Assembly (NCBI GenBank): GCA_963740085.1
Contig: CAVUCU010000003.1
Span: 1-64,000 of the forward strand
Source: Nitrospirota bacterium
GTDB lineage: Bacteria > Nitrospirota > UBA9217
Direction of reading: 5' to 3'
DNA: 64,000 nucleotides
A program made the translations under genes and the position numbers. Shown here piece by piece: positions 6,319-57,005 of the stretch (position 1 is the first letter of the stretch; each line of letters starts with the position of its first letter). The notes below the pieces were generated by a model. That model was given only the letters and a program-made list of their open reading frames with translations. It was not told where the DNA came from and ran no database searches.

Positions 6319-6404
6319 GCCGCGGATGGTACGGATGCGCAGGTCGCGCTGCAGGCGCTTAACGCCCCGGTCAACGTGCGCCGGTCGGTATAGACTCCGC
6401 GCTC

Positions 6405-8916: not shown

Positions 8917-8929
8917 CGCCGCGGCGCGG

Positions 8930-9324: not shown

Positions 9325-9432
9325 AGAGCACCAGGTGCCCGCCGGCCGCGGTTCGCGAAACCACGAGGCGGCCGGTGCTGCGGCAACCAGGTAAGCTCCC
9401 GCGACGCCTGGATTTGGCTCGAATACAGGCTC

Positions 9433-9520
9433 GGCGGGGTGCCGGGAGCGGTCGAACGGGGCGGTCTTGAAAACCGCTGACGGGGCAACTCGTCCGTGGG
9501 TTCAAATCCCACCCCCGCCG
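9433..9520 (+). tRNA. tRNA-Ser (anticodon UGA)
   Basis: Acceptor stem GGCGGGG/CCCCGCC, anticodon arm GCGGT-CTTGAAA-ACCGC, long variable arm GACGGG-GCAA-CTCGTC, T arm GTGGG-TTCAAAT-CCCAC, discriminator G, no encoded CCA. Confidence 0.95.
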
Positions 9521-9523
9521 CCT

Positions 9524-43521: not shown

Positions 43522-44745
43522 ATGGACAAAAAACAGATCCTGAGCTGGTGTCTCTTCGATTTCGCGAACTCGAGCTACTCGGCGGTGATCGCCGCGGTCA
43601 TCTTCCCGGTCTATTACGCCGGCGTGATCGTCGGGAACACCTCCGGTGAGGGCGACCTCTGGTGGGGACGCGCCATCTCCCTGAGCATGCTCTTAATAGC
43701 CCTTTCCTCTCCGTTCCTCGGCGGCATCGCCGACTACGCGGGTCTGCGGAAACGGCTCCTTGCGTTCTATACCGCGACATGCGTCGTTGCCCTGTCGGGG
43801 CTGACGCTCCTCACGCCGGGCGCGGTCGTCGCCGGGTTCATCCTGATCGTGTTCGCAAACATCGGCATGGAAGGCGGCCTGGTCTTCTACAATTCCTTCC
43901 TTCCGCGGATAGCGCCGGCGGAGTATCACGGCAGGGTCTCGAGCTGGGGTTTCAGCATCGGCTACGCGGGCTCCATCGCCTCGCTCCTGATCGCGCTGCC
44001 GCTCGTAAAATCCGGGCATTACGGAATGACGTGGATCGCAACCGCGGCCTTCTTCGCGCTCTTTTCCCTTCCGGCCTTTTTGTTCCTGCCGGGAGACGCC
44101 CGGGCTGACGTGAGGGCAATGCAGGCCGGGACCCGGGGCTTTGAGCAGGCCTGGAAAACCATCAAGGACCTCTGGAAACGCAGGGAACCGAGAAAATTTC
44201 TTATCGCTTATCTGTTGTATGAAGACGGGGTCAATACGGTCATCGTCTTTTCAAGCATCTTTGCGGCAACGACACTGCATTTCGGGACAGGAGAACTTAT
44301 CGGTCTCTACATCACCGTACAATTCACGGCACTCCTCGGCGCCTTCTTCCTGGCAAAGCCCACGGACACCTGGGGACCCAAAAAGGTCGTCATGCTCTCC
44401 CTCATCCTCTGGACCATCGTCGCCGTCACTGCTTATTTTGTGGAGACCAAACAACAGTTCTGGGCCGTCGCATGCACCGCTGGAATGGGGCTCGGGACCG
44501 TACAGGCCGGCACACGCGCCTTTTACACACAATTCGTGCCACAGGGCAGCGAGGCCGAGTATTTCGGCGTTTACTCCCTTGTGGGCAAATCCTCTGCAAT
44601 CTTCGGTCCGCTCGTCTTCGGCTTTGTTTCGTCTACCTTCGGAAGCCAGCGGCCCGCGATCCTCTCCATTGCACTTTTTTTTGTCACGGGGATGATCCTG
44701 CTCAGCATGGTCAAGGGCGGAGGACCGAACATCGGTAAAGAGTGA
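43522..44745 (+). CDS. MFS transporter (UMF1/ATG22-like)
   Basis: SWCLFDFANS, FYNSFLP, GRVSSWG; about 12 TMs. Confidence 0.9.
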   Translation: MDKKQILSWCLFDFANSSYSAVIAAVIFPVYYAGVIVGNTSGEGDLWWGRAISLSMLLIALSSPFLGGIADYAGLRKRLLAFYTATCVVALSGLTLLTPGAVVAGFILIVFANIGMEGGLVFYNSFLPRIAPAEYHGRVSSWGFSIGYAGSIASLLIALPLVKSGHYGMTWIATAAFFALFSLPAFLFLPGDARADVRAMQAGTRGFEQAWKTIKDLWKRREPRKFLIAYLLYEDGVNTVIVFSSIFAATTLHFGTGELIGLYITVQFTALLGAFFLAKPTDTWGPKKVVMLSLILWTIVAVTAYFVETKQQFWAVACTAGMGLGTVQAGTRAFYTQFVPQGSEAEYFGVYSLVGKSSAIFGPLVFGFVSSTFGSQRPAILSIALFFVTGMILLSMVKGGGPNIGKE

Positions 44746-44814
44746 AGGTTGGATTAACAGCCCTGCCTCTGACCTGACCCTGACTCCTGGCTCCTGCCTT
44801 TCCAGTATTTCTTC

Positions 44815-44843
44815 TTGACAAAACCGGAGCTTCCCCTTATAAT
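44815..44843 (+). promoter_or_regulatory. Consensus sigma70 promoter of the yceD-rpmF-plsX-fab operon
   Basis: TTGACA-17 nt-TATAAT exact. Confidence 0.85.
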
Positions 44844-44881
44844 TCGATGCTTACAGCGCTTGCAGCCTCCAGAGAAACAAA

Positions 44882-45397
44882 ATGGCCATGAAGATCAACG
44901 ATATACCGCCAGAGGGGCTTACACTGGATCTGAAACAGCAGCTCGACCTATTCGACACGGGAACGGCATCAACGGCTTTTACGGCGATTCTCAGCATCAG
45001 ACCGACGGGCGCCGAAGTCCTCCATATAAAAGGCCGGGTTCAGGCTGACCCGGAACTCGAGTGCAGCCGTTGTCTGAAGGTTTTTCCGTATCATATCGAT
45101 ACGGAACTGGATATAACCCTTGCCCCGGAGAAGGTCCTTGGAACGGCCCCGGAGCATGAACTTGGCCGGTCAGAGCTCGACATGGAGTTCTATCAGGGCG
45201 AGGAGATAGATCCCGTCGAACTCGTAAAAGAGCAGTTGCTGATTTCCGTTCCCATGGTTCCGCTCCACCGTCCCGACTGCAAGGGCCTTTGCCCCGTCTG
45301 CGGAACGGACCTGAACGAAAGGGACTGTGGTTGCAAGAGAGACAGCCTTGGTGATTTCGGGGCATTTTCCGTTTTAAAGGATCTATTGAAAAAATGA
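44882..45397 (+). CDS. yceD: YceD/DUF177
   Basis: ECSRCL, CKGLCPVCG.DLN..CGC; upstream of rpmF. Confidence 0.93.
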   Translation: MAMKINDIPPEGLTLDLKQQLDLFDTGTASTAFTAILSIRPTGAEVLHIKGRVQADPELECSRCLKVFPYHIDTELDITLAPEKVLGTAPEHELGRSELDMEFYQGEEIDPVELVKEQLLISVPMVPLHRPDCKGLCPVCGTDLNERDCGCKRDSLGDFGAFSVLKDLLKK

Positions 45398-45471
45398 CGT
45401 TTCGCACTGAGAAACGTCTCCCTGAGCGAAGCGAAGGGCCTAAAAAAAGAGGTTAAGGAGTTTACACGAAC

Positions 45472-45654
45472 ATGGCAAATCCAAAACACAAGACATCCAA
45501 GTCCCGCAGGGACAAGAGGCGCACTCACAAGCACCTCAAGGCCCCGAATCTCATGGCCTGTCCGCAATGCCAGGAAGTGAAGCAGCCCCATCACGCCTGC
45601 CTATCCTGCGGCACCTACAACGGCCGCGAGATCGCAACTGTTCAGCAGATATAA
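45472..45654 (+). CDS. rpmF: 50S ribosomal protein L32
   Basis: MANPKHKTSKSRRDKRRTH, CPQC..CLSCG. Confidence 0.97.
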   Translation: MANPKHKTSKSRRDKRRTHKHLKAPNLMACPQCQEVKQPHHACLSCGTYNGREIATVQQI

Positions 45655-45734
45655 CCGGCGCTTGCTCAAAGGCAAAGGGATGATACTGTGTTTTCCGGTA
45701 TGACTCTTTGCCTTTTATATTGCGGAGAGCTTGA

Positions 45735-46748
45735 ATGAAGATCGCTGTTGATGCCATGGGAGGGGACAATGCGCCTCATGCCATCGTCGCCGGAGCCGTT
45801 CAGGCGGCGAAGGAATACGGTATCGGCATCATCGTGGTGGGCATTGAACAAGTTATTCAAGCGGAACTGAAAAAGCACCCCCTTTCACAATCACTGCCGA
45901 TAGAGATACGGAACGCCACCGAGGTGGTGGACATGCTCGACTCTCCGGTCACGGTATTCCGGAGAAAGAAAGACTCTTCGATCCGGGTGGCTAATGAGCT
46001 TGTCAAGAGCGGAGAAGCGGTGGCCGTTATCAGCGCCGGACATACCGGAGCGGCCATGGCCACGTCGCTCTTTGTCCTGGGAAACCTCGAGGGGATCGAG
46101 CGACCGGCTATCGCCACCTTTATGCCGACGATCAAGGGAACGTCCATCATCCTCGATATGGGCGCGAACGTGGACTGCAAACCCAATCACCTTCTTCAGT
46201 TCGCCGTTATGGGTGAGGTCTACGCAAAGTATCTGTTGAAGGTCCCCAGTCCCCGTGTGGGTCTCCTGTCCATCGGCGAAGAAGAGACAAAGGGGAACGA
46301 ACTGACCAAGGAGGCCTTCAAGCTCCTGACCGAGACCTCGCTCAATTTCATCGGCAATGTCGAGGGACGCGACGTCACGTCCGGCAACGCGGATGTCATC
46401 GTCTGCGACGGTTTTGTCGGAAACGTAGTGCTCAAAGTCTCCGAGTCCGTCGCCGAGGCCGTCGGTCTCTTTATTCGCGAGGGTGTCGGCAACAGTATGG
46501 TTCGCAAACTCGGGTATCTCTTGATGAGGCCGGCCTTCCAATATCTCAAACGGCGGACCGATTATGCTGAATACGGCGGCGCGCCGCTCGTCGGCATCAA
46601 TGGCATCAGCATCATCAGCCATGGTCGATCATCCGACCGGGCCATTAAGAATGCCATACGCGTGGCAGCAGAACTCGCGAAGAGCGAGGTCAATAAGCAC
46701 CTGCGCGCGGATATAGAAAAGAATATGGAGCTGACCAGAGCCAAATGA
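45735..46748 (+). CDS. plsX: Phosphate acyltransferase
   Basis: IAVDAMGGD, SAGHTGA, LDMGAN, GEEETKG, CDGFVGN. Confidence 0.97.
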   Translation: MKIAVDAMGGDNAPHAIVAGAVQAAKEYGIGIIVVGIEQVIQAELKKHPLSQSLPIEIRNATEVVDMLDSPVTVFRRKKDSSIRVANELVKSGEAVAVISAGHTGAAMATSLFVLGNLEGIERPAIATFMPTIKGTSIILDMGANVDCKPNHLLQFAVMGEVYAKYLLKVPSPRVGLLSIGEEETKGNELTKEAFKLLTETSLNFIGNVEGRDVTSGNADVIVCDGFVGNVVLKVSESVAEAVGLFIREGVGNSMVRKLGYLLMRPAFQYLKRRTDYAEYGGAPLVGINGISIISHGRSSDRAIKNAIRVAAELAKSEVNKHLRADIEKNMELTRAK

Positions 46749-47725
46749 TTCAAGCGCGCATAACAGGGACCGGGTCGTACGCACCGAAGAAGATCGCCAC
46801 CAATCACGACCTCGAGAAGCTTGTGGACACGAGTGACGCTTGGATTCTCGAACGCACCGGCATCAAGGAACGCAGGATCGCGGAAAAAGGCCAGACCACA
46901 TCCGATCTCGCGTACGAAGCAAGCCGGCGAGCACTCAAAGCCGCCGGACTCGGCGCTGATGATGTGGACCTGATATTGGTTGCGACCATGACGCCGGACA
47001 CGATCCTTCCGTGCACCGGATGCGTGCTTCAGGAGAAGCTCGGGGCCAGGAAAGCGGCGGCATTCGATATCTCCGCGGCCTGCTCAGGATTTATCTACGG
47101 AATGTCCATCGCCGACGCCTTTATCAAGTCCGGGGCCTATAAAACCATTCTCCTTGTAGGGGCGGAGATCCTTTCGCGGTTTACCGACTGGGAGGACCGC
47201 GCGACCTGCGTCCTGTTCGGTGACGGGGCCGGAGCAATCGTGATCCAGCGGCACACGGGCAAGCGCGGTATTCTTTCGAGTCACCTTCATTCGGACGGGA
47301 CCCTCGGGGATTTGATCAAGGTACCTGCCGGAGGCGCCTCGCACCCGTCATCGCACGAAACCATCCGCAAGCGAATGCACTTCATCAAAATGAAGGGCAA
47401 TGAAACGTTCAAGGCCGCGGTTCGGGCGCTGGAGGGAGTGGTTCAGGAGGCACTGGAGCACAATAAGATAAAACCCGAGGAGATCGACTTCCTCGTCCCG
47501 CACCAGGCCAATTTAAGGATCATTCAGGCCATGGCACAGCGCCTGAACATGCCGATGGAAAAGGTCGTGCTCACGCTTCCGAAATACGGGAATACCTCCG
47601 CGGCCTCCATCCCGATGGCGCTTGACGAGGCTGTCCGTGACGGCAGGATCAAGGAAAATCATCTTCTTTTGTTCGAAGCATTCGGCGGTGGACTCACCTG
47701 GGCATCTGCCCTGGTACGGTGGTAA
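46745..47725 (+). CDS. fabH: Beta-ketoacyl-ACP synthase III
   Basis: AACSGF, FGDGAGA, PHQAN, GNTSAAS. Confidence 0.97.
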   Translation: MIQARITGTGSYAPKKIATNHDLEKLVDTSDAWILERTGIKERRIAEKGQTTSDLAYEASRRALKAAGLGADDVDLILVATMTPDTILPCTGCVLQEKLGARKAAAFDISAACSGFIYGMSIADAFIKSGAYKTILLVGAEILSRFTDWEDRATCVLFGDGAGAIVIQRHTGKRGILSSHLHSDGTLGDLIKVPAGGASHPSSHETIRKRMHFIKMKGNETFKAAVRALEGVVQEALEHNKIKPEEIDFLVPHQANLRIIQAMAQRLNMPMEKVVLTLPKYGNTSAASIPMALDEAVRDGRIKENHLLLFEAFGGGLTWASALVRW

Positions 47726-47731
47726 AGAATC

Positions 47732-47833
47732 ATTGGAAATTGCAAATTGGAGATTGGAAAGTGTTCGTTGACATGCTTTTCTCGTTCCGGGTTGCAATTT
47801 AAAATTTCCAATTCTCGATCTTAAATTTCCAAT
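47732..47833. repeat. Heptad-periodic inverted repeat, same family as 38919
   Basis: ATTGGAAATTGCAAATTGGAGATTGGAAA ... AATTTAAAATTTCCAATTCTCGATCTTAAATTTCCAAT. Confidence 0.85.
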
Positions 47834-47853
47834 TAATGTTTTTGGAGGATTCA

Positions 47854-49011
47854 ATGGATTACCTGCTGACAGAGGAACAAATCATGATACGCGATCTCGC
47901 ACGGCAGATCGCCGTGGAAAAGATCGTGCCCGTGCGCGCCGAGCTCGATGAGCATAACAAATTCCCCACTGATATCATGAAGGCCATGGCCCAGGCGGAC
48001 CTCTTCGGGATCTATATCCCCGAGGAATATGGCGGCCTTGGGAAAAAGAGCCTCGATCTCTACATCGCCATCGAAGAGATCTCCAAGGCATGTCTTGGCG
48101 TATCCACGTGCTATGCCGCCAATGCCCTTGGCTCCTATCCGATCCTCCTCTACGGCAGCGACGCGCAGAAGAAAAAATACCTTCCCAACATCGCATCGGG
48201 CAAGGATTTCGTGGCGTTCGGCCTTACCGAGGCAAACGCCGGCAGCGATGCCAGCGGCATCCAGACGACTGCAAAACTTGAAGGCAACGAATACGTGCTG
48301 AACGGCACCAAGCAGTGGATCACGAACGGCGGCGAGGCACGGGTATACACCGTCATCGCCATCACGGACAAGTCCAAGGGCGCCCGCGGCGCTTCTGCCT
48401 TCATCGTGGAAAAGGACACTCCGGGCTTCACCTTCGGCAAGAAAGAGAACAAGATGGGCATCCGGGCATCCTCCACCACCGAGCTCATTTTTAACAACTG
48501 CCGCATCCCCAGGGAAAACCTCATCGCCAGGGAAGGCCTGGGCTTCATCGTGGCCATGAAGACCCTCGACAGCTCGCGCGCAGGCGTGGGCGCCCAGGGT
48601 GTGGGCGTCGCGCAGGGCGCGATCGACGAATGCATCAAGTTCGCCAAGGGCAGGGTCCAGTTCGGCCAGCCCATCACCTCGTTCCAGGCGATCCAGCATA
48701 TGCTTGCGGACATGCAGACCCAGACCGAGGCGGCCCGCGCCCTTGTCTATTCCGCGGCCCGCATGATGGACAGCGGAGCAAAGGACTTCTCCCGGGCGTC
48801 AGCCATGGCGAAGCTCTTCGCTACCGACACGGCCATGAAAGTCACCATTGATGCGGTTCAGGTCATGGGCGGTTCGGGCTACATGAAGGAATACCCCGTT
48901 GAGAAGATGATGCGCGACGCAAAGATCCTCCAGATCTACGAGGGGACCAACCAGGTCCAGCGCAACGTCATTGCCCTCGATATGATCAGGGAAGCGACGA
49001 GACAGAAATAA
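47854..49011 (+). CDS. Acyl-CoA dehydrogenase (Bcd/SCAD-like)
   Basis: FGLTEANAGSD, GTKQWITNG, KMGIRAS, RDAKILQIYEGTNQVQR (catalytic Glu). Confidence 0.95.
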   Translation: MDYLLTEEQIMIRDLARQIAVEKIVPVRAELDEHNKFPTDIMKAMAQADLFGIYIPEEYGGLGKKSLDLYIAIEEISKACLGVSTCYAANALGSYPILLYGSDAQKKKYLPNIASGKDFVAFGLTEANAGSDASGIQTTAKLEGNEYVLNGTKQWITNGGEARVYTVIAITDKSKGARGASAFIVEKDTPGFTFGKKENKMGIRASSTTELIFNNCRIPRENLIAREGLGFIVAMKTLDSSRAGVGAQGVGVAQGAIDECIKFAKGRVQFGQPITSFQAIQHMLADMQTQTEAARALVYSAARMMDSGAKDFSRASAMAKLFATDTAMKVTIDAVQVMGGSGYMKEYPVEKMMRDAKILQIYEGTNQVQRNVIALDMIREATRQK

Positions 49012-49040
49012 GCGGAGCACGAGGACAAAACACTCATTAA

Positions 49041-49095
49041 ACCACAAAGGCACGAAGGCACAAAGGACTGCACCATGCCTTCGTGCCTTTGTGGT
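49041..49095. repeat. Perfect 20-bp inverted repeat built of 9-mers
   Basis: ACCACAAAGGCACGAAGGCA / TGCCTTCGTGCCTTTGTGGT, 15-nt loop. Confidence 0.9.
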
Positions 49096-49110
49096 AAAAG
49101 GATCGGATAC

Positions 49111-49896
49111 ATGCACATCATTGTCTTGATAAAACAGGTCCCCGACACATCGGAAGTCAAGATCAACCGGGAGACCAATACGCTCATTCGCGACGGGGTA
49201 CCGAGCATCATCAATCCCTTTGACATGTTTGCCATTGAAGAGGCTCTTCGCCTGCGCGAGCAGCACGGCGGCAAGGTTACCGCCGTGACCATGGGCCCGC
49301 CTCAGGCGGCAGACTCGCTCAAAGAGGCCGTTGCCATGGGTGTGGACGACGTCGTGTTGTTCTCGGACCGTGCCTTTGCGGGAGCCGATACCTGGGCGAC
49401 ATCCTATACACTCTCTCAGGGGATCAAGAAGATCGGCGCTTTCGACCTCATCATCGCGGGGAAGCAGGCTATCGACGGTGACACGGCCCAGGTCGGTCCC
49501 GAAACAGCGGAGATGCTCGGCATCCCCTTCATCGCCTATGTGCGAAAAATAGAAAAGGTGGAAAATTCTACGCTGGTGGCCGAGCGCATGATGGATGAAG
49601 GATACGATGTTGTCGAGACGTCGCTCCCTGCGCTCATCACGGTCGTGAAAGAGATCAACCAGCCGCGCCTGCCGTCGCTCAAGGGAAAGATGAAGGCCAA
49701 AGGTCTCAAGGTCGCTTCGTGGACCGCGGCGGACATCGGCGCGGACCAGGACCTGTGCGGGCTCAGGGGTTCCCCCACCAAGGTCGTCCGGATATTCCCG
49801 CCCGCGCCGCGTGGACAGCGGGAGATCCTTTCGGGCAGCATGGAAGAGCAGGTTACCACGGTGTTGAAGAAGCTGAAAGAACAGGCGTTGATATAA
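49111..49896 (+). CDS. etfB: Electron transfer flavoprotein beta subunit (bifurcating-type motifs)
   Basis: KQVPD, INPFD, FAGADTWAT, GKQAIDGDTAQVGP, GLRGSPT. Confidence 0.95.
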   Translation: MHIIVLIKQVPDTSEVKINRETNTLIRDGVPSIINPFDMFAIEEALRLREQHGGKVTAVTMGPPQAADSLKEAVAMGVDDVVLFSDRAFAGADTWATSYTLSQGIKKIGAFDLIIAGKQAIDGDTAQVGPETAEMLGIPFIAYVRKIEKVENSTLVAERMMDEGYDVVETSLPALITVVKEINQPRLPSLKGKMKAKGLKVASWTAADIGADQDLCGLRGSPTKVVRIFPPAPRGQREILSGSMEEQVTTVLKKLKEQALI

Positions 49897-49899
49897 ACA

Positions 49900-50120
49900 C
49901 AGGGGACAGGGGTCAGATCAAACTGGAAAAAACTTTTGACACGGATTTACACGGATAAAATTCGGACAACAGCGGAATTTTTCTCTTATGGAGTTTTTAT
50001 CCATCTGGTGAAAGCTCAAGAGAAGCATAATTCTTTTTCTTCCGTTTTTATCATATTTTAATCCGCCTCTTCAGTGTCTAAATGCTTGTTTCTCTCTCCT
50101 GACTACTGGCTTTTGACTCC
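49900..50120. repeat. Nested periodic inverted-repeat elements
   Basis: Outer CAGGGGA-CAGGGGT-CAGA / CTGACTA-CTGGCTT-TTGACTC; inner GACACGGATTTACACGGAT / ATCCGCCTCTTCAGTGTC. Confidence 0.65.
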
Positions 50121-50139
50121 CGATCGTAAGGAGCTTCAC

Positions 50140-51330
50140 ATGGCTGTAAAGGTCATATCTGATAAATGCACCGGATGCGAGACTTGCGTATCCACGTGCC
50201 CGTTCGGCGCTATTGAGATGCGCGACGGCAAGGCGTTCATTACCGAGGCCTGCACCATGTGCGGCGCCTGCGTCGAGGTCTGCGAATTCAAAGCCATCGA
50301 AAAGACGGAAGAGGTTGCCGGCCCGGCTGCCGACCTCTCGGCCTACAAGGGTGTTTGGGTCTTCGCTGAACAGCACAAAGGCAGTATTGCCGGCGTTGCC
50401 CTTGAACTCCTTGGAGAAGGCAGGAAGCTTGCTGATAAAAAGAATGCCAAGCTCGCTGCTGTTTTCCTCGGGCACGGCATCAAAGACACGGCACAGGAAC
50501 TCATTGCCTTCGGCGCAGACATTGTCTACGTAGCAGACGATCCAACGCTCAGGGATTTTAATGATGACTCCTATGCCGCGGTCCTGACATCCCTCGTGAA
50601 ACAGCACAAACCCGAGATACTCCTGGCGGGCGCAACAGCGATCGGCCGCTCCTTTTTCCCCAAGGTAGCCTCTTCACTCTATGCCGGCCTTACCGCCGAC
50701 TGTACCGTTCTCGATATCGACGCTGAGACCGGCCACCTTCACCAGACCCGTCCGGCGTTCGGCGGAAACATCATGGCCACGATCGTCACACCAAACCACC
50801 GTCCCCAAATGGCAACGGTAAGGCATAAGGTGATGAAACCCGCCCCGCGCGACGACGCACGGACCGGCGAGATCATCGACGTCACGTTGAACGGGTCCGA
50901 AACTCTTCGCACCAGGGTCATCAAGACCGTGGAAGAACTGGGCGAGACCGTCAATATTTGTGAAGCGGACATCATCGTAGCGGGCGGCCGGGGCCTGGGC
51001 AGCGCCAAGAACTTCCACCTGCTGGAGGAACTGGCAAAAGCGCTGGGCGGCGCGGTTGCGGCAACGAGGGGAGCTGTCGATGAAGGATGGATCCCCTACT
51101 CCCACCAGGTGGGCCAGACGGGAAAGACGGTCTGTCCAAAGCTGTACATCGCCTGCGGCATCTCAGGCGCTATCCAGCATATTGCAGGGATGCAGTCATC
51201 GGACGTCATTGTAGCGATCAACAAGGACCCCGATGCGCCTATCTTCAGCGTCGCGACCTATGGCATTGTCGGCGATGTGCATGAAGTGCTTCCGATCATG
51301 ATCAAGAAGATCAGGGAAATGCGGGGCTGA
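50140..51330 (+). CDS. etfA: ETF alpha subunit with N-terminal 2x[4Fe-4S] ferredoxin domain
   Basis: [12 protein letters not shown] and [11 protein letters not shown]; [28 protein letters not shown]. Confidence 0.95.
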
Positions 51331-51345
51331 GGGCAAAAATCTTTT

Positions 51346-51445
51346 TCTCGCAGAGGCGCAGAGTTCACCGAGAATAACCTAGAAATAATCCGGGCTAAAA
51401 TCAAGTTGCTGATTTAACTCCGCGTCCCCTGCGTGCTCCGCGAGA
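51346..51445. repeat. Nonamer-periodic inverted repeat (CGCAGAG type)
   Basis: TCTCGCAGAGGCGCAGAGTTCACCGAG ... CTCCGCGTCCCCTGCGTGCTCCGCGAGA. Confidence 0.75.
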
Positions 51446-51491
51446 GACGCTTTATGGTTTTGTCTTATAATTTTTTGAGGTTTATACTTTT

Positions 51492-52424
51492 ATGAAAATC
51501 GCCTTCATCTTTCCCGGCCAGGGCTCGCAGTACCTTGGAATGACAAAGGAGTTCAGTGAGACTTTTGCCGAATCAAAGGAAGTCTTCGAGGCCGCAAGCA
51601 CGGTGCTCGGCTACGATCTCCTCCAGCTCTGTCTGAACGGACCGGTCGAGAAGCTGAATCTTACCGAGTACACCCAGCCCGCACTATTGAGCGCGAGCAT
51701 CGCCATTCTGCAGCCGCTGGTGAGAAGAGGATTGCAGGCTTCTGCTGCAGCCGGCCACAGCCTCGGTGAGTACACCGCCATAACCGCGGCAGGCGGGTTC
51801 GAACTCAAGGACGCCGTCATGCTGGTGCAAAAGCGCGGTCGGTTCATGCAGGAGGCCGTACCGGAAGGAACCGGGCTCATGGCGGCGATCCTCGGCATGG
51901 ACCGGCAGGACGTAGAAAAAACTTGCCTTGAAGCGGCCAAAAATGGTATAGTTGCCCCTGCAAATTACAACTCTCCGGGTCAGATCGTTATCGCCGGCGA
52001 GAAAAAGGCAGTGGAAAAGGCCATGGAGCTTGCCAGGACGGCCGGGGCAAAAAAAGTGATCCCCCTCTCCGTGAGCGTGCCTTCACACTGTGCAATGATG
52101 AAGCAGGCCGGGGCCCGGCTTGCGCAGGAACTCGAACGGGTGACGATCCATGATCTGGACATCCCGATCGTGAATAACGCGGATGCGAAGTTTCTCCGGA
52201 ACGCTGCGGAGCTCGTACAGTCGCTCGTCAGACAGATCAGTTCCCCGCTCTACTGGGAAGATTCTATCAAGCGCATGGCCGCAGAGGGGTACGACACCTT
52301 CATCGAGATCGGTCCCGGCAAGGTGCTTTCCGGCCTCGTAAAACGCATTGCGAAGGATGTGAAGGTTCTGAACATCGAAGACCAGAAAAGCATGAGCGAC
52401 GCGCTCAACGCGCTGGGAATGTAA
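51492..52424 (+). CDS. fabD: Malonyl-CoA:ACP transacylase
   Basis: FPGQGSQ, GHSLGEY, SVPSH, EIGPGKVL. Confidence 0.97.
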   Translation: MKIAFIFPGQGSQYLGMTKEFSETFAESKEVFEAASTVLGYDLLQLCLNGPVEKLNLTEYTQPALLSASIAILQPLVRRGLQASAAAGHSLGEYTAITAAGGFELKDAVMLVQKRGRFMQEAVPEGTGLMAAILGMDRQDVEKTCLEAAKNGIVAPANYNSPGQIVIAGEKKAVEKAMELARTAGAKKVIPLSVSVPSHCAMMKQAGARLAQELERVTIHDLDIPIVNNADAKFLRNAAELVQSLVRQISSPLYWEDSIKRMAAEGYDTFIEIGPGKVLSGLVKRIAKDVKVLNIEDQKSMSDALNALGM

Positions 52425-52428
52425 GAAC

Positions 52429-52460
52429 AGGGTTCATAGGGTTCAAGGGTTCAAGGGTCA
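52429..52460. repeat. Octamer tandem repeat AGGGTTCA x4
   Basis: agggttcat agggttca agggttca agggtca. Confidence 0.8.
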
Positions 52461-52526
52461 TCAGAAACAAGGTTCACTGTTCATGTTCCAGTGTTCAGTT
52501 CAGTCAGGTTCGAAAGGAGCAGTCTG

Positions 52527-53267
52527 ATGAGTTTGAACGGAAAGATAGCGCTTGTCACCGGAGCGGCACAGGGGATCGGCAGGGACATCGCTCTTGCGCT
52601 CGCGGCAGACGGCGCTGATGTCGCCATCTGCGATGTGAACCTTGATGTTGCTCAGAAGACCGCCGCGGACATCGAAGCACTGGGGTGTAAATCGCTTGCC
52701 ATCAAGACCAACGTTGCCGCGTCCGCCGAGGTCACGGCGATGATCGACCAGGTCGTTGGGAAGCTCGGCAGGATAGACATCCTGGTGAACAACGCCGGCA
52801 TAACCCGCGACGGGCTCATTCTCCGGATGAAGGACGAGGACTGGGACCTGGTCCTGAGCATCAATTTGAAAGGCTCGTTCCTGTGCGCCAAGTCAGCGCT
52901 CAAGTATATGAGCAAACAGCGCAGTGGAACCATCATCAACATCGCCTCGATCGTCGGCGCCATGGGCAATGCCGGGCAGGCGAACTATGTTGCATCCAAG
53001 GCCGGCCTCATCGGCTTGACCAAGACCATCGCACGGGAATATGCGAACCGCGGCATCACGGCAAACGCCGTGGCCCCCGGTTTTATCGATACCGCCATGA
53101 CACGGGCATTGTCTGAGAACGTCAGGGCGGAACTCGCGAAGCAGATCCCCATGGGCAAGCTCGGCACCCCCGAGGATGTGGCAAATGCGGTCCGTTTCCT
53201 TGCTTCACCGTGGGCCGCCTACATTACCGGCCAGGTGATCCATGTAAACGGCGGGATGTACATGTAA
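52527..53267 (+). CDS. fabG: 3-oxoacyl-ACP reductase
   Basis: TGAAQGIG, NNAGITRD, GQANYVASK, VAPGFIDT. Confidence 0.97.
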   Translation: MSLNGKIALVTGAAQGIGRDIALALAADGADVAICDVNLDVAQKTAADIEALGCKSLAIKTNVAASAEVTAMIDQVVGKLGRIDILVNNAGITRDGLILRMKDEDWDLVLSINLKGSFLCAKSALKYMSKQRSGTIINIASIVGAMGNAGQANYVASKAGLIGLTKTIAREYANRGITANAVAPGFIDTAMTRALSENVRAELAKQIPMGKLGTPEDVANAVRFLASPWAAYITGQVIHVNGGMYM

Positions 53268-53353
53268 TAATACCCGTTTTGAAGGATTCAACGTACACAG
53301 CTCATTGAGACGTACGATGCACAGCGTGAAGAACACAATCAGAGGAGGATGAC

Positions 53354-53590
53354 ATGGCAGATGTGGTGGCAAAAGTTAAAAAGATCATTTCCGAGCAGCT
53401 CGGCGTACCAGAAGCGGATGTAAAGCCCGAGGCGTCGTTCGTGAACGACCTTGGCGCTGATTCACTCGACACCGTGGAGCTCGTGATGGCGCTCGAGGAG
53501 GAATTCGGCGTCGAGATCCCCGATGAAGATGCCGAAAAGATAGCGACCGTGCAAAACGCGATCGACTACATCAAGGCGAAGGCAAAGTAA
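53354..53590 (+). CDS. acpP: Acyl carrier protein
   Basis: [20 protein letters not shown]. Confidence 0.98.
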
Positions 53591-53603
53591 AAGTCAGAAA
53601 GCG

Positions 53604-53708
53604 GGAATACAGACGATCAGGGTTCAGAGAACAGATGAACGATGACTGACTTAAGCTTTTGATTCAGTCCGTCTTCTGTTCTCCCTGGTGTTCTGTCCTC
53701 TGTATTCC
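53604..53708. repeat. Heptad-periodic inverted repeat
   Basis: GGAATACAGA..GAACAGATGAACGATGACTGA / TCAGTCCGTCTTCTGTTC..TCTGTATTCC. Confidence 0.75.
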
Positions 53709-53717
53709 AAATTACTT

Positions 53718-53773
53718 CCGAAAGCCAGAAGACCTCTCGCTCAGGCGTACGAGTCGGTTTTTTGGCTTTTCGG
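53718..53773 (+). terminator. Terminator-like hairpin after acpP
   Basis: CCGAAAGCCAGAAGACC...GGTTTTTTGGCTTTTCGG. Confidence 0.5.
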
Positions 53774-53908
53774 ATTTCTTGCTCCGCCAGCGTCAGCCTC
53801 TACCCTTGTCAGCGGCTAACATCATCATACCGGTTTGTGAAATAACGTCACACCATATCTTCACGGGGGCCTTGTCTCTGAGGGGATCTATACAGGAGGT
53901 ATCGTCGT

Positions 53909-55150
53909 TTGAAAAAAAGAGTCGTCATCACCGGCGTCGGGATGGTCACTCCGGTCGGCCTCGATACTGAAGCAAGCTGGGAAGGCCTGATCAACGGTAA
54001 ATCAGGCATTGGCCCCATCACGCAGTTCAATGACAAGGCCATCCCCACGCAGATCGCGGGTGAGATTCACGGTTTCGCGCCGGAGAAGTACATCGAACCC
54101 AAAGAGATCAAAAAGATGGACCGCTTTATCCATTTTGCGATAGGGGCAAGCCAGATGGCCATGGACATGTCCGGCCTCAAGATAACCCCGGAAAACGCCG
54201 ATCGCGTCGGCGTCATCGTAAGCTCGGGCATGGGCGGTCTTCCGGCCATCGAACGGGTCCATGAGGCATATCGTGAGAAAGGATATCGCCGGATAACGCC
54301 CTTCTTCATTCCCATGTCCATCATCAACGAAGTGGCCGGCCATATTTCCATCCGCTTCGGCGCCAAAGGGCCCAATCTCAGCGTTGTCACCGCATGCTCA
54401 ACAGGCACCCATTCCATCGGCGACGCCTTCAAGTGGATCCAGCGCGGCGATGCTGACGCCATGATCGCCGGCGGCACGGAATCGTGCATCTGCCCGACGG
54501 GCGTGGGCGGGTTCAACGCCATGAAGGCCCTCTCTACCCGGAACGACGAACCGCAGCGCGCAAGCCGTCCCTTTGATGCCGAGCGCGACGGTTTCATCAT
54601 GGGGGAAGGTTCCGGCATAGTGGTCCTCGAGGAAATGGAATTTGCGCTCAAACGCGGCGCCCGCATCTACGCGGAGGTGCTGGGTTACGGCGCCTCGGGC
54701 GATGCCTATCATATAACCTCACCCGCGCCGAACGGCGAGGGGGCTGCGAGGTGCATGGCATTGGCGATCAAGGACGCGGGGATCGACCGGAAAGAACTGG
54801 GCTATATCAACGCGCACGGCACCTCCACCAAGTACGGCGACGAGCTCGAGAGCATTGCCATCAAGACCGTGTTCGGCGATACTGCCTATAAAATACCGGT
54901 AAGCTCCACAAAATCGATGACCGGCCATCTGCTCGGCGCTGCCGGCGGTGTTGAGGCCGTCATCTCCGTGCTTGCGCTGGACCGCGGTGTCCTTCCGCCC
55001 ACGATCAACCTTGAGAATCCCGATCCTGAGTGCGATCTGGATTATATCCCGCACACGGCCAGAAAGGTGCAGGTGGACGTAGCCATGTCCAACTCATTCG
55101 GTTTCGGCGGCACGAACGCCTGCCTGGTCTTCCGCAGATTCCGAAAATAA
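53909..55150 (+). CDS. fabF: Beta-ketoacyl-ACP synthase II
   Basis: [35 protein letters not shown]. Confidence 0.97.
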
Positions 55151-55151
55151 G

Positions 55152-55850
55152 ATGCCTCCCCTTTCGGACATCCAGCAGCGAATCGGCTATACATTCAAGG
55201 ACACGGAGCTCCTCGAACGCGGGCTCACCCACAAGTCCTATGCGAACGAGTGCCGGGTCCCCTATCACAATGAACGGATGGAGTTCCTCGGCGACGCCGT
55301 CCTCGGTCTCGTCATAAGCGAATATCTGATGAAGGCCTTCCCTGAATCCACTGAAGGCGACCTCTCGAGGCTCAGGGCGGCAGTCGTGAGCGAACCCGCC
55401 CTCGCCGCCGTTTCCCGCGAGATCGGGCTCGGCAGCTATCTTCTGCTCGGAAAAGGGGAAGATCAAACAGGCGGAAGGAACAAGGATTCGCTCCTTGCCG
55501 ACTGTCTTGAGGCACTCATTGCGGCCGTATATCTCGATGCGGGCAAGGATGCAGCGGAGTCGCTCGTTATCCGCCTTTTTGAAGAGGTGATCAAGAAGAC
55601 CAGCACCTCCGGCGGATCGCTTGATTATAAGACGGAGTTCCAGGAGCGCTGCCAGGAGCAGCTCAAACAGCTTCCGGAATACCGCATTGTTTCCGAGACC
55701 GGCCCTGATCATCAGAAGCAGTTCGAGATGGAAGTATGGATCAAGGGAAATCTTGCCGGCCGGGGCAGAGGAAAGAGCAAAAAGGAGGCGGAGCAACGTG
55801 CGGCCAAGGAAGCCCTGGAAAGACTTTCTGAGAAATCGAACCCTGCATAA
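55152..55850 (+). CDS. rnc: Ribonuclease III
   Basis: NERMEFLGDAVL, DCLEALIAAVYLD, dsRBD SKKEAEQRAA. Confidence 0.97.
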   Translation: MPPLSDIQQRIGYTFKDTELLERGLTHKSYANECRVPYHNERMEFLGDAVLGLVISEYLMKAFPESTEGDLSRLRAAVVSEPALAAVSREIGLGSYLLLGKGEDQTGGRNKDSLLADCLEALIAAVYLDAGKDAAESLVIRLFEEVIKKTSTSGGSLDYKTEFQERCQEQLKQLPEYRIVSETGPDHQKQFEMEVWIKGNLAGRGRGKSKKEAEQRAAKEALERLSEKSNPA

Positions 55851-56176
55851 GCCTACAGAGAGCAGTTCAGCCACATAAAGTACAAATAAATCAATCAGCA
55901 CTTTGGTAAAAAACTTCACCAAACAGGTGATTTTTCTTTTTGGCGTCAAGATGCTGTTTCTCCTCTGTGATTTTTGAGCCTTCAGTGGCCAACTGCCGTT
56001 TTTATCATAAAATCAGGAACAACCGCGCCAACCCCGATGTTCTCGCAGAATATCTACCCTTGAATATGCAAATTGCATATTGGTCCGACTAATTCTAATT
56101 TTCCACATATTGCATATTAGTCAGCAATTGAATTGCAATGAATTCCACCCCTTACCTTAAGTTTTTTCAATTCATC

Positions 56177-56206
56177 TTGACCAATTCATATTGTTTATGC
56201 TACCGT
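56177..56206 (+). promoter_or_regulatory. Putative cassette-array (Pc-like) promoter
   Basis: TTGACC-18 nt-TACCGT with extended -10 TG. Confidence 0.45.
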
Positions 56207-56215
56207 ATCCCGTCC

Positions 56216-56234
56216 CTATAATAACTTGTTATAC
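56216..56234 (+). mobile_element. attI-like simple site
   Basis: CTATAAT-AACTT-GTTATAC: inverted L/R boxes 5 bp apart, 9 nt before the first cassette ATG. Confidence 0.45.
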
Positions 56235-56243
56235 CCTTAAATT

Positions 56244-57005
56244 ATGAAGGACGAAGAAAATATATTTACACGCAAACTTGAGGTCTTCCGCACTGAGATT
56301 GAATCGGCCATTCAATTTTTTTATGCCCATCGTGCAATGAATGGAGTACTGGCCAAAGACAAATACACACTTGAGATTGTTAATCGAACCCCGCTATTTT
56401 GGGTCACTACTACGGGTGCCCTTCATACTGCTTTTTTCATTACATTAGGGCGCATTTTCGATCAAGACTCAAATCACAATATCGACAAGATTCTCCGCAC
56501 TGCGCAAGAACACACTATAATCTTTTCTAAAGAAGCATTAGAGCGAAGAAAACGTGCAGGAAGTGCAAATGCAGCTGAGTGGATTAATGAATACATGAAG
56601 AGTGTCTATGTTCCAAGCGCTGTGGATTTTCGTAGATTAAGAAAGTATGTCGCCAAATATCGAAAAACATATGAAACTGTTTATAGAGACATCCGAAACA
56701 AAGTAATTGCCCACAAACAGCTGTCTAACGTAGATGACATTCATGCACTGTACGCTAAGACAAATATTGCCGACATGCAAAAATTGCTCATCTTTTTGAA
56801 CAAGCTTTATCATGCGCTCTGGCAGCTTTACCACAATGGGAATAAGCCCGTATTGCGACAGATGAAGTATTCTGCTAAAAGAATGATAAGAGCAGAATTA
56901 CCTAAATGGCAAAGCCACCATGTTCAGGAGCGAATAGTGGCCGATACCGTAAATTTCTTAAAACTGCTTTCGAATATACCGAAAGAACAATTGGGCCGAG
57001 ATTAA
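56244..57005 (+). CDS. HEPN-domain (AbiU2-like) protein, first cassette
   Basis: Low GC; FITLGRIFD and RNKVIAH HEPN-type motif; all-helical character. Confidence 0.7.
   Translation: MKDEENIFTRKLEVFRTEIESAIQFFYAHRAMNGVLAKDKYTLEIVNRTPLFWVTTTGALHTAFFITLGRIFDQDSNHNIDKILRTAQEHTIIFSKEALERRKRAGSANAAEWINEYMKSVYVPSAVDFRRLRKYVAKYRKTYETVYRDIRNKVIAHKQLSNVDDIHALYAKTNIADMQKLLIFLNKLYHALWQLYHNGNKPVLRQMKYSAKRMIRAELPKWQSHHVQERIVADTVNFLKLLSNIPKEQLGRD

What the first reader, a model, noticed from the sequence alone, without database searches (positions are those of the whole stretch)
46745..52424. Acyl-CoA dehydrogenase-EtfB-EtfA(Fd) module inside the core fab operon: candidate novel enoyl-ACP reductase
Seen: gene order plsX-fabH-[ACAD-etfB-etfA]-fabD-fabG-acpP-fabF-rnc, all on one strand behind a perfect sigma70 promoter, with no fabI/fabK/fabL/fabV in the operon. 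EtfB has GKQAIDGDTAQVGP and EtfA has an N-terminal 2x[4Fe-4S] domain. Established: these features match electron-bifurcating Etfs (clostridial Bcd-EtfAB, Acetobacterium CarCDE) that reduce enoyl-thioesters with NADH while reducing ferredoxin. In clostridial fab operons fabK often occupies the fabH-fabD slot. Inference: the trio may perform the enoyl-ACP reduction step of FAS II, coupling lipid synthesis to ferredoxin reduction. Alternatively it may make butyryl or branched acyl-CoA primers for FabH.
Basis: partly seen in the sequence, partly recalled or inferred. Interest (0 to 1): 0.85.

Follow-up and report, generated by a model that had tools for sequence, protein, structure and literature searches.

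The report
Flavoprotein trio replacing enoyl-ACP reductase
An acyl-CoA-dehydrogenase-like enzyme and its two electron-transfer partners sit in the fatty-acid synthesis operon exactly where related bacteria keep their enoyl-ACP reductase, so they probably perform that missing step, possibly saving energy as reduced ferredoxin.

Summary
The operon reads yceD-rpmF-plsX-fabH-ACAD-etfB-etfA(2x[4Fe-4S])-fabD-fabG-acpP-fabF-rnc behind a 12/12 sigma-70 consensus promoter.

The source is a Nitrospirota genome, 98.5% complete. It has no FabI-, FabL- or FabV-type enoyl-ACP reductase (ENR). Its only FabK-like gene is split and is missing from its closest relatives.

- In related Nitrospirota the same fabH-fabD slot holds FabK, a FabL-like SDR, or this trio. 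It is empty where FabI lies elsewhere.
- Of 151 Nitrospirota genomes, 83 carry the ACAD orthologue and 49 carry FabI. None carries both.
- Of 121 Thermodesulfobacteriota genomes, 58 carry the ACAD, 46 of them within 6 kb of fabF. Only 1 of the 58 has a clear FabI.
- At least five different fab-linked arrangements occur across phyla.
- Four small, complete carrier genomes have no crotonase or Hbd, which argues against butyryl-CoA primer supply.
- The Etf subunits match proven bifurcating Etfs (CarDE, Bcd-Etf) far better than canonical ones.

Best reading (about 0.62): an Etf-dependent, probably ferredoxin-coupled, enoyl-ACP reductase of FAS II. ACP use and bifurcation are inferred, not shown. 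Nine full-text searches found no description of this.

The parts
44815..44843 (+). sigma-70-type promoter-like site TTGACA-17-TATAAT upstream of yceD
   Evidence: 12 of 12 consensus matches. It is the only such site in 44600-56400. The region had 11 promoter-like sites against 5.5 +/- 2.5 in shuffles.
44882..45397 (+). yceD (first gene of the conserved unit)
   Evidence: PF02620, 97 bits. It is syntenic in relatives.
45472..45654 (+). rpmF (ribosomal protein L32)
   Evidence: ORF. phmmer finds it at the same position in related loci.
45735..46748 (+). plsX, phosphate acyltransferase
   Evidence: PF02504 391 bits; TIGR00182 387 bits, over the cut-off.
46745..47725 (+). fabH, ketoacyl-ACP synthase III; overlaps plsX by 4 bases
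   Evidence: TIGR00747 453.5 bits, over the cut-off of 292.
47836..49011 (+). ACAD-family flavoprotein, the candidate catalytic subunit of the enoyl-ACP reductase (probable start 47854)
   Evidence: Acyl-CoA_dh_N, _M and _1 domains.: best NCBIfam match AcrC, 479 bits, under the cut-off of 640.: best solved relative is Bcd of the C. difficile Bcd-EtfAB complex (5OL2_C), 419 bits.: the YEGT motif with Glu369 is invariant in 24 of 24 aligned orthologues.
49075..49896 (+). etfB, small Etf subunit of the bifurcating type (probable start 49111)
   Evidence: PF01012.: it scores 213-267 bits against CarD (6FAH_B), 7KOE_A, 5OL2_B, 7QH2_B and 4KPU_B, but only 89-95 bits against canonical Etf-beta.
50074..51330 (+). 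etfA, large Etf subunit with an N-terminal 2x[4Fe-4S] ferredoxin domain (probable start 50140)
   Evidence: Fer4, ETF and ETF_alpha domains.: best solved relative is CarE (6FAH_A), 427 bits, aligned from the ferredoxin domain to the C-terminus. Canonical Etf-alpha chains score 136-159 bits.
50146..50316 (+). ferredoxin-like domain of EtfA with two CxxCxxCxxxC motifs
   Evidence: Fer4 stretches at residues 25-48 and about 56-81 of the ORF. The alignment to CarE shows the same.
51492..52424 (+). fabD, malonyl-CoA:ACP transacylase
   Evidence: TIGR00128 357 bits, over the cut-off.
52491..53267 (+). fabG, 3-oxoacyl-ACP reductase
   Evidence: TIGR01830 335 bits, over the cut-off.
53354..53590 (+). 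acpP, acyl carrier protein
   Evidence: NF002149 136 bits, over the cut-off. The DSL motif is invariant in 24 of 24.
53909..55150 (+). fabF, ketoacyl-ACP synthase II
   Evidence: TIGR03150 665 bits, over the cut-off.
55152..55850 (+). rnc, RNase III (last gene of the conserved unit)
   Evidence: TIGR02191 275 bits. Terminator-like sites on the + strand follow at 55916-55930 and 55984-56000.

Best explanation
The ACAD, EtfB and ferredoxin-fused EtfA form a Bcd/CarCDE-type flavoprotein complex. This complex supplies the enoyl-ACP reductase step of type II fatty-acid synthesis in this organism, and in many other anaerobes that lack FabI, FabK, FabL and FabV.

Proposed mechanism. NADH reduces the FAD of EtfB. 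One electron passes through the FAD of EtfA to the FAD of the ACAD. After two such rounds the ACAD reduces trans-2-enoyl-ACP to acyl-ACP. The other, low-potential electron leaves through the two [4Fe-4S] clusters of EtfA to ferredoxin. Each elongation cycle would then yield reduced ferredoxin.

Shown here: the gene content, the operon position, the absence of the known reductases, the phyletic complementarity, and the similarity to proven bifurcating Etfs.

Inferred, not shown: that the three proteins form a complex, that the substrate is the ACP thioester, that chains up to C16-18 are accepted, and that ferredoxin is reduced.
For: (1) In-situ displacement. The operon yceD-rpmF-plsX-fabH-[X]-fabD-fabG-acpP-fabF-rnc is otherwise colinear across families of the same phylum. 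X is FabK in 3 loci (L140-L142). X is a FabL-like SDR in 3 loci (L134-L136; its best NCBIfam match is FabL). X is ACAD-etfB-etfA in families f1, f3 and f12. X is empty in 2 FabI-bearing genomes (L144, L145).

(2) Complementary distribution in Nitrospirota. Among 151 genomes at least 90% complete, 83 have the ACAD orthologue (E<=1e-140), 49 have a FabI-like protein, and 0 have both. FabK over its cut-off occurs in 4, none of which has the ACAD.

(3) Second phylum. Of 121 genomes of the phylum of G191 (a Thermodesulfobacteriota MAG), 58 have the ACAD. In 46 of those 58 it lies within 6 kb of fabF. FabI-like proteins of 227 bits or more occur in 17 genomes, only 1 of which has the ACAD. FabK over its cut-off occurs in 4, all without the ACAD.

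(4) Further genomes. Of 43 more genomes, 24 have a fab-linked ACAD, and none of these has FabI or FabK over the cut-off. Of the 19 with an unlinked ACAD, 6 have FabI and 1 has FabK.

(5) Several independent gene orders link the trio to fab genes: between fabH and fabD; between fabH and fabG; plsX-ACAD; fabF-rnc-ACAD; fabF-ACAD; and ACAD-etfBA-fabD. etfB-etfA-fabD is seen in L138.

(6) Own genome. FabD, FabH, FabG, FabF, AcpP and FabZ are present, but no recognised ENR is. A separate, longer ACAD with a plain Etf lies in a beta-oxidation-like cluster elsewhere.

(7) No source of crotonyl-CoA. The closed or ~100% complete carrier genomes G030, G067, G090 and G021 have no ECH_1 hit. Their only 3HCDH_N hits are partial, at 25-27 bits. 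The three of them that were searched with EtfA (G030, G067, G090) each have a single Fd-EtfA.

(8) Conservation. The ACAD is at least as conserved as FabF in the same genome pairs. ACAD/FabF identities are G071 85/78, G030 77/72, G067 74/66 and G191 67/58 %.

(9) Etf type. EtfA and EtfB score 2-4 times higher against bifurcating Etfs, including the ferredoxin-fused CarE, than against canonical Etfs.
Against: No biochemical or genetic test exists, and no tool here showed ACP binding.

The own genome holds two NMO-family genes. One is FabK-like but split, scoring 54+190 bits. The other is an intact 376-aa protein next to ribF with only 104 bits to FabK. I could not survey the second across genomes, so it is not excluded as an ENR.

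In the second phylum, sub-cut-off FabK-like proteins (E<=1e-70) occur in 14 of 58 ACAD-bearing and 25 of 63 ACAD-free genomes. Complementarity with the FabK family is therefore not clean. G201 has both the ACAD and a 273-bit FabI-like protein.

In 40 of the 83 Nitrospirota carriers (11 families) the ACAD is not next to fabF.

A Bacillota clade of 12 close homologues (66-70% identity) is never fab-linked, and 7 of the 12 genomes have FabI or FabK. Orthology alone therefore does not fix the function.

The phyletic pattern is strongly clustered by family, so independent events are few.

ENR types outside FabI, FabK, FabL and FabV (MDR or OYE type) were not surveyed. The FabV searches had no positive control.
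Confidence: 0.62

Rival explanations
1. The trio is a Bcd/Etf-type enoyl-CoA reductase that makes butyryl-CoA or another short acyl-CoA as the primer for FabH. A still unrecognised enzyme does the enoyl-ACP reduction.
For: The closest solved relative of the ACAD is a butyryl-CoA dehydrogenase (5OL2_C, 419 bits). The best NCBIfam matches are the acryloyl-CoA reductase subunits AcrC, AcrB and AcrA. The trio lies directly after fabH.
Against: No thiolase, Hbd or crotonase genes accompany the trio in any of the 92 loci examined. Four near-complete carrier genomes lack crotonase and Hbd altogether. In some arrangements fabH is absent from the locus (L058, L067, L071, L096). The slot is the one used by FabK or a FabL-like SDR in sister families. 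The missing-ENR problem would also remain.
Confidence: 0.1
2. The complex works as an acyl-ACP dehydrogenase or desaturase, introducing a 2-enoyl bond for anaerobic unsaturated fatty-acid synthesis as FabX does in Helicobacter. It may do this in addition to, or instead of, ENR activity.
For: ACADs naturally oxidise acyl thioesters. No FabA/FabB pair was seen in the own genome, only FabZ and a FabA-like piece inside another lipid cluster. FabX is a flavin and [4Fe-4S] enzyme acting on acyl-ACP (abstract in the listing).
Against: The Etf is of the NADH-using bifurcating type that drives enoyl reduction in all solved relatives. The distribution complements ENRs and not desaturation systems. An ENR would still be missing.
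Confidence: 0.08
3. The real ENR is a divergent NMO/FabK-like protein or an unsurveyed MDR/OYE-type reductase. The ACAD-Etf trio has another housekeeping redox role, such as NADH:ferredoxin balancing, and is merely co-regulated with lipid synthesis.
For: NMO-family genes exist in the own genome. FabK-like sub-cut-off proteins exist in 14 of 58 ACAD-bearing genomes of the second phylum. ENR families beyond FabI, FabK, FabL and FabV were not searched.
Against: The FabK-like gene of the own genome is split and was found in only 3 of 38 family genomes. At E<=1e-40 no FabK-like match was found in the closed carrier genomes G030, G067, G071, G085, G090 and G093. Weak TIGR03151 hits also occur in 13 of 14 control genomes, including FabI users. 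An ACAD needs an enoyl or acyl thioester substrate, and in four carrier genomes no route to enoyl-CoA was found.
Confidence: 0.15

Closest known systems
Butyryl-CoA dehydrogenase/EtfAB complex of Clostridia (C. difficile, PDB 5OL2)
   Same: It has the same three-protein make-up of ACAD, EtfB and EtfA. It is the best solved match of the ACAD (419 bits) and a strong match of both Etf subunits. According to the abstract of PMC5691135 (listing), it reduces an enoyl thioester with 2 NADH while reducing 2 ferredoxins.
   Different: The substrate there is crotonyl-CoA in butyrate fermentation, and the genes lie with crt, hbd and thl (recalled). Here the genes lie inside the FAS II operon of organisms without crotonase or Hbd, and EtfA carries a ferredoxin domain that 5OL2_A lacks (alignment ranges). 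The ACAD is under the cut-off of the nearest NCBIfam equivalog.
Caffeyl-CoA reductase CarCDE of Acetobacterium woodii (PDB 6FAH)
   Same: It gives the best solved match of EtfA (CarE, 427 bits, including the N-terminal 2x[4Fe-4S] domain) and of EtfB (CarD, 267 bits). It is an enoyl-thioester reductase; that it bifurcates is recalled, not seen in a call.
   Different: CarC matches the ACAD less well (316 bits) than Bcd does. Car serves respiration with phenylacrylates (recalled), not lipid synthesis.
FabK (flavin-dependent enoyl-ACP reductase II) and FabL
   Same: They occupy the same operon slot between fabH and fabD in sister families of the phylum. The proposed reaction, enoyl-ACP to acyl-ACP, is the same.
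   Different: The folds are unrelated: FabK is an NMO TIM barrel and FabL an SDR. Both are single subunits fed directly by NAD(P)H, with no Etf and no Fe-S clusters. The 2022 ENR review (PMC9260719; passages from a term search) lists FabI, FabK, FabL, FabV, FabL2 and FabI2 and has no occurrence of 'acyl-CoA dehydrogenase', 'electron transfer' or 'ferredoxin'.
ACADs that act on carrier-protein thioesters (MbtN acyl-ACP dehydrogenase, RedW/PigA prolyl-PCP dehydrogenases)
   Same: They show that the ACAD fold can accept carrier-protein-bound substrates. They appear among the NCBIfam hits of this ACAD.
   Different: The matches are weak (MbtN 78 bits, RedW 259 bits, PigA 247 bits, all far under their cut-offs). 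Those enzymes oxidise, belong to secondary metabolism, and are not known to use bifurcating Etfs (recalled).
Helicobacter pylori FabX
   Same: A flavoenzyme with a [4Fe-4S] cluster that acts on acyl-ACP within FAS II (abstract in the listing).
   Different: According to that abstract it is a dehydrogenase/isomerase for unsaturated fatty acids. It is not an ENR, has no Etf partners, and belongs to a different protein family.

Membership tests
Acyl-CoA dehydrogenase superfamily | Three-domain architecture (N-terminal helical, middle beta, C-terminal helical) | tested here: met
   PF02771 123 bits, PF02770 99 bits and PF00441 177 bits, all over their cut-offs.
Acyl-CoA dehydrogenase superfamily | Catalytic glutamate in the C-terminal YEGT motif (position recalled from MCAD/Bcd) | tested here: met
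   Glu369 in IYEGTNQ is invariant in 8 of 8 and 24 of 24 orthologues. It aligns with the same motif of 5OL2_C and 4L1F_A.
Butyryl-/acryloyl-CoA dehydrogenase equivalogs (NCBIfam AcrC, NF042972) | Score over the curated equivalog cut-off | tested here: not met
   479 bits against a cut-off of 640. No other ACAD equivalog is reached either.
Butyryl-CoA dehydrogenase (functional class) | Genomic or metabolic source of crotonyl-CoA (thiolase, Hbd, crotonase) | tested here: not met
   No such neighbours in 92 loci. No ECH_1 hit and no full 3HCDH_N hit in G030, G067, G090 and G021. The own genome does have a beta-oxidation-like cluster elsewhere, with its own ACAD and Etf.
Electron-bifurcating Etf (group of Bcd-Etf, CarDE, LctBC) | Closer sequence similarity to proven bifurcating Etfs than to canonical AMP-containing Etfs | tested here: met
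   EtfA scores 287-427 bits against the bifurcating set and 136-159 bits against the canonical set. EtfB scores 213-267 against 89-95 bits.
Electron-bifurcating Etf (group of Bcd-Etf, CarDE, LctBC) | Second FAD in EtfB and NADH-dependent ferredoxin reduction | not testable with these tools
   This needs cofactor analysis and enzyme assays. AcrABC, also a near match, is recalled as non-bifurcating.
Ferredoxin-fused EtfA (CarE type) | N-terminal domain with two CxxCxxCxxxC motifs | tested here: met
   Fer4 Pfam hits and the alignment to CarE residues 1-60.
Known enoyl-ACP reductases FabI / FabL / FabV (SDR) and FabK (NMO) | SDR or NMO fold of the protein itself | tested here: not met
   The trio has ACAD and ETF folds only. 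It would be a separate ENR class.
Enoyl-ACP reductase (functional class) | Sits in the FAS II operon and is mutually exclusive with other ENRs | tested here: met
   Slot equivalence. 83 genomes with the ACAD, 49 with FabI and 0 with both, of 151. 46 of 58 linked to fabF and 1 of 58 with a clear FabI in the second phylum. Exclusivity with sub-cut-off FabK-like proteins is not clean.
Enoyl-ACP reductase (functional class) | Reduces trans-2-enoyl-ACP and binds ACP | not testable with these tools
   This needs an enzyme assay. The complex prediction gave no verdict (see Tried and rejected).

The most novel reading that the evidence does not exclude
A sixth, mechanistically distinct class of bacterial enoyl-ACP reductase: an electron-bifurcating ACAD/EtfAB-ferredoxin complex. 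It would turn every elongation cycle of fatty-acid synthesis into a ferredoxin-reducing, energy-conserving step. It would be the main ENR of about half of the sampled Nitrospirota and Thermodesulfobacteriota, and of members of Omnitrophota, Rokubacteria, Saganbacteria/Margulisbacteria and other anaerobic lineages.
Probability: 0.4. Interest if true: 0.92.

Novelty: new variant of a known kind. Interest (0 to 1): 0.85.

Why it matters
Many anaerobes, including cultured Thermodesulfovibrio-type sulfate reducers, have no recognisable enzyme for the last step of the fatty-acid elongation cycle. This finding names a concrete, testable candidate that is widespread: 83 of 151 sampled Nitrospirota genomes and 58 of 121 sampled Thermodesulfobacteriota genomes.

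If the complex bifurcates as its closest relatives do, lipid synthesis in energy-limited anaerobes would recover part of the free energy of enoyl reduction as reduced ferredoxin, 7-8 times per C16-18 chain. That would change energy budgets, interpretations of lipid hydrogen isotopes, and metabolic models of such organisms.

It would also extend flavin-based electron bifurcation from catabolism into core biosynthesis. And it would add an ENR class unrelated to the targets of FabI- and FabK-directed inhibitors.

Tried and rejected
- **Complex prediction** of an ACAD dimer with AcpP (alignments A2 and A3): no verdict, score 0.01 against a mark of 0.32. The controls were not run. I do not use it either way.
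- **Expression.** The look-up of sequencing runs on 45735-53590 listed 20 DNA holders and no RNA holder. Read laying was therefore not used, and I make no statement on expression.
- **FabL model NF005975 as a genome probe**. It does not discriminate. FabG proteins score 175-187 bits, above the slot SDR of G130 at 162 bits. FabL-likeness therefore rests on the best-hit scan of single proteins.
- **FabV searches** with PF12242 (own genome) and PF12241 (151 genomes). Nothing was found, but none of the 14 control genomes rang either, so this is weak evidence of absence.
- **Clade-specific residues**. Only R23 and R34 are at least 91% conserved in 79 non-Bacillota rows and differ in the Bacillota clade, where they are Ala in 10-12 of 12. 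Without coordinates I cannot say whether they face ACP, Etf or neither. I draw no conclusion.
- **G012.** Its ACAD is in two pieces and it has an intact FabK-like gene. I considered this a possible replacement. However, in the ORF listing of that contig fabG and acpP were also not recovered as intact hits, so assembly errors may explain it. I did not check this further.
- **Neighbours of the unlinked Bacillota homologues**: RACo, a corrinoid protein, FolD, MFS, MetRS, SpoIIR and a MiaB-like protein. There is no butyrate pathway and no fab genes, and their role stays open.
- **The 376-aa NMO-family protein**. It carries generic 'nitronate monooxygenase' labels.
- **Literature.** Nine full-text searches found no paper describing an ACAD/Etf enoyl-ACP reductase. 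Subscription journals are not covered and supplements were closed. I saw passages only of PMC4916218, PMC5317091 and PMC9260719. All other papers were seen only as search listings with the start of the abstract.

Full report
**What is there.** The window is the start of contig C3 of a 3.46-Mb, 7-contig genome, 98.5% complete with 2.7% contamination. Its nearest named relatives are Nitrospirota MAGs of the Thermodesulfovibrionia type. All on the + strand lie yceD, rpmF, plsX, fabH, an acyl-CoA dehydrogenase family gene (ACAD, 47836-49011), etfB (49075-49896), etfA (50074-51330), fabD, fabG, acpP, fabF and rnc. The fab genes pass their NCBIfam equivalog cut-offs. EtfA starts with two CxxCxxCxxxC motifs. 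A 12/12 TTGACA-17-TATAAT site lies at 44815-44843. No + strand terminator-like site falls between 46470 and 55915.

**Is a known enoyl-ACP reductase present in the genome?** The genome has five full-length SDR-type (adh_short_C2) proteins plus weaker partial matches in one 521-aa frame.
- The best NCBIfam matches of the five full-length ones are FabG families or a pteridine-reductase-like family, never FabI or FabL.
- FabV domains were not found, but that search had no positive control.
- One FabK-like gene exists at C5:335903-336851. It is read in two frames, with the break at a run of A, and scores 54+190 bits against a FabK cut-off of 453.
- At E<=1e-40 that gene was found in 3 of 38 genomes of the family and in none of the other 4 genomes of the genus. 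It is therefore not the family's housekeeping reductase.
- A second, intact NMO-family gene (376 aa, next to ribF) has only 104 bits to FabK. Hits of that strength occur in 13 of 14 control genomes, including FabI users. I could not survey it further.
- FabZ is present, so only the reductase step lacks a candidate.

**Displacement in place.** In relatives of the same phylum the operon is colinear, and only the position between fabH and fabD varies.
- It holds FabK in G019, G028 and G024 (families f2 and f7).
- It holds an SDR whose best NCBIfam match is FabL (158-162 bits, under the cut-off) in G080, G130 and G105 (families f16 and f20).
- It holds ACAD-etfB-etfA in families f1, f3 and f12.
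- It is empty in G025 and G026, which have FabI elsewhere.

This is the classical signature of non-orthologous replacement of one function.

**Distribution in Nitrospirota.** I sampled 151 genomes at least 90% complete.
- The ACAD orthologue (E<=1e-140, 70-99% identity) is in 83, covering 14 families.
- A FabI-like protein (238-380 bits to NF006019) is in 49, covering 7 families.
- No genome has both.
- FabK over its cut-off is in 4 (f2 3 of 3, f7 1 of 1), none with the ACAD.
- Sixteen genomes have none of these three. Three are in f1: G012 has its ACAD in two pieces, and in G115 fabF lies at the start of its contig. Twelve are in f16 and one in f20. I examined 3 of those 13, and all 3 have the FabL-like SDR in the slot.
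- FabV was found in 0 of 151, without a positive control.

Linkage of the 83 carriers:
- In 32 the ACAD lies within 7 kb of fabF (f1 25, f3 6, f12 1).
- In 2 it is 18-24 kb away but still follows plsX-fabH (L018, L019).
- In 9 of families f1 and f3 the two genes are on different contigs.
- In 40 genomes of eleven other families the two are unlinked. Six are on one contig more than 100 kb apart, and 34 are on different contigs.

Those unlinked genomes still lack FabI, FabK and FabV. Each of the five that were searched has a single ferredoxin-fused EtfA. In G067, etfB-etfA-fabD are adjacent (L138).

**Other phyla.**
- The 80 best loci from one genome per species show ACAD orthologues of 66-79% identity in MAGs labelled Thermodesulfobacteriota/Deltaproteobacteria, Omnitrophota, Rokuibacteriota, Saganbacteria, Margulisiibacteriota, Actinomycetota, Elusimicrobia, Verrucomicrobiota, Lentisphaerae and Bacillota.
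- Their contexts include at least five fab-linked orders: fabH-ACAD-etfBA-fabD, fabH-ACAD-etfBA-fabG, plsX-ACAD-etfBA-fabG, fabF-rnc-ACAD-etfBA and fabF-ACAD-etfBA, besides ACAD-etfBA-fabD.
- I tested 43 of these genomes; their completeness is not reported. The 24 with a fab-linked ACAD have no FabI and no FabK over the cut-off. FabK-like proteins of 320-358 bits occur in 3 of them, and weaker ones in 6 more.
- The 19 unlinked ones include 6 with FabI and 1 with FabK.
- A FastTree of 94 ACADs roughly follows organismal groups. It sets apart a Bacillota clade of 12 (support 87) that is never fab-linked. Seven of those 12 genomes have FabI or FabK.
- In 121 genomes of the phylum of G191, 58 have the ACAD (57-71% identity). 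In 46 of these it lies within 6 kb of fabF. In 3 it is on the same contig but far away, in 6 on another contig, and in 3 fabF was not found at the threshold.
- In the same phylum, FabI-like hits at E<=1e-40 occur in 19 genomes. Seventeen score 227 bits or more, and only G201 among them has the ACAD. The two others, G218 and G258, score 143-149 bits and do have the ACAD.
- FabK over its cut-off occurs in 4, all without the ACAD. Sub-cut-off FabK-like proteins (E<=1e-70) occur in 14 of 58 carriers and 25 of 63 non-carriers. The FabK family does not give a clean contrast there.

**Primer supply or reductase?**
- None of the 92 loci examined has thiolase, Hbd or crotonase next to the trio.
- Four closed or ~100% complete carrier genomes (G030, G067, G090, G021) have no ECH_1 match. 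Their only 3HCDH_N matches are partial, at 25-27 bits. G020 has one ECH. These organisms have no evident way to make crotonyl-CoA, so a Bcd role is unlikely.
- Some arrangements lack fabH at the locus.
- The own genome keeps a separate beta-oxidation-like cluster with a 595-aa ACAD and a plain Etf.
- The ACAD is at least as conserved as FabF between the same genomes, for example 85/78, 77/72, 74/66 and 67/58 %. That fits a core enzyme.

**Mechanism.**
- The ACAD's nearest solved relatives are the Bcd subunits of bifurcating complexes (5OL2_C 419 bits, 4L1F_A 397 bits; CarC 316 bits).
- The catalytic Glu of the YEGT motif is invariant.
- EtfA matches CarE best (427 bits) over its whole length, including the two-cluster domain. 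The next matches are other bifurcating Etfs (287-330 bits), against 136-159 bits for canonical ones.
- EtfB behaves likewise: 213-267 against 89-95 bits.
- Bifurcation is inferred. The NCBIfam neighbours AcrABC are recalled as non-bifurcating.
- Use of ACP follows only from pathway logic. All other enzymes of the operon act on ACP esters, and no tool result shows ACP binding.

**Known or new?** Nine full-text searches found no description. The 2022 review of bacterial enoyl reductases has no occurrence of 'acyl-CoA dehydrogenase', 'electron transfer' or 'ferredoxin'. The Caldithrix genome paper notes that no close FabI homologue was identified there (passage). Subscription literature and supplements were not visible.

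I rate it a new variant of a known kind: a Bcd/CarCDE-type complex recruited as the FAS II enoyl reductase. Confidence in the ENR role is about 0.62. Confidence in ferredoxin-coupled bifurcation as well is about 0.4.

Noticed in passing
window 1-9522: The first ~9.4 kb have 67-74% G+C against 51-58% in the rest of the window, and the segment ends at a tRNA-Ser(tga) gene at 9433-9522. This is either an island inserted at a tRNA or a chimeric contig end. ORFs there include a piece of an ADH_N_2 (MDR-type) oxidoreductase and a PspAB/M48 protein.
   Followed up: partly
G000:C5:335903-336851 (L001 1347-2322): A FabK-like NMO-family gene is read in two frames, with the break at a run of A. It scores 54+190 bits against the FabK cut-off of 453. 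It is followed by a deaminase gene. At E<=1e-40 it was seen in only 3 of 38 genomes of the family.
   Followed up: yes
G000:C5, L002 1432-2562: An intact 376-aa NMO-family protein lies divergent from ribF, with only 104 bits to FabK. Atlas look-alikes carry generic nitronate monooxygenase labels. Its distribution across genomes was not surveyed.
   Followed up: partly
G000:C1:739585-749557 (L010): A second ACAD (595 aa, with an extra C-terminal domain) lies with a plain EtfBA, an ECH-like gene and a 3-hydroxyacyl-CoA dehydrogenase gene. The last matches in two frames. This is a beta-oxidation-like cluster. Its split gene hints at assembly indels or pseudogenes.
   Followed up: partly
G000:C4:399594-422414 and G000:C5:472100-476060: Two further clusters hold FabG-like, FabF-like, ACP and FabA-like genes. 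One SDR best matches the flexirubin reductase FlxB. These are possibly aryl-polyene or flexirubin-type lipid clusters.
   Followed up: no
L134-L136 (G080, G130, G105): Nitrospirota families f16 and f20 have no FabI, FabK or ACAD. They carry a 270-280-aa SDR between fabH and fabD whose best NCBIfam match is FabL at 158-162 bits, far under the cut-off of 328. It is possibly an undescribed FabL-like ENR subfamily.
   Followed up: partly
ACAD residues 23 and 34 (window 47902-47904 and 47935-47937): Arg is at least 91% conserved at both positions in 79 non-Bacillota orthologues. It is Ala in 10 and 12 of the 12 Bacillota-clade homologues that are never fab-linked. The meaning is unknown.
   Followed up: no
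L062, L068, L085: In three Bacillota MAGs the homologous ACAD-etfBA follows genes for a RACo-type corrinoid activator, a B12-binding protein and FolD. This suggests a link to methyl-group or demethylase metabolism rather than to fab.
   Followed up: no
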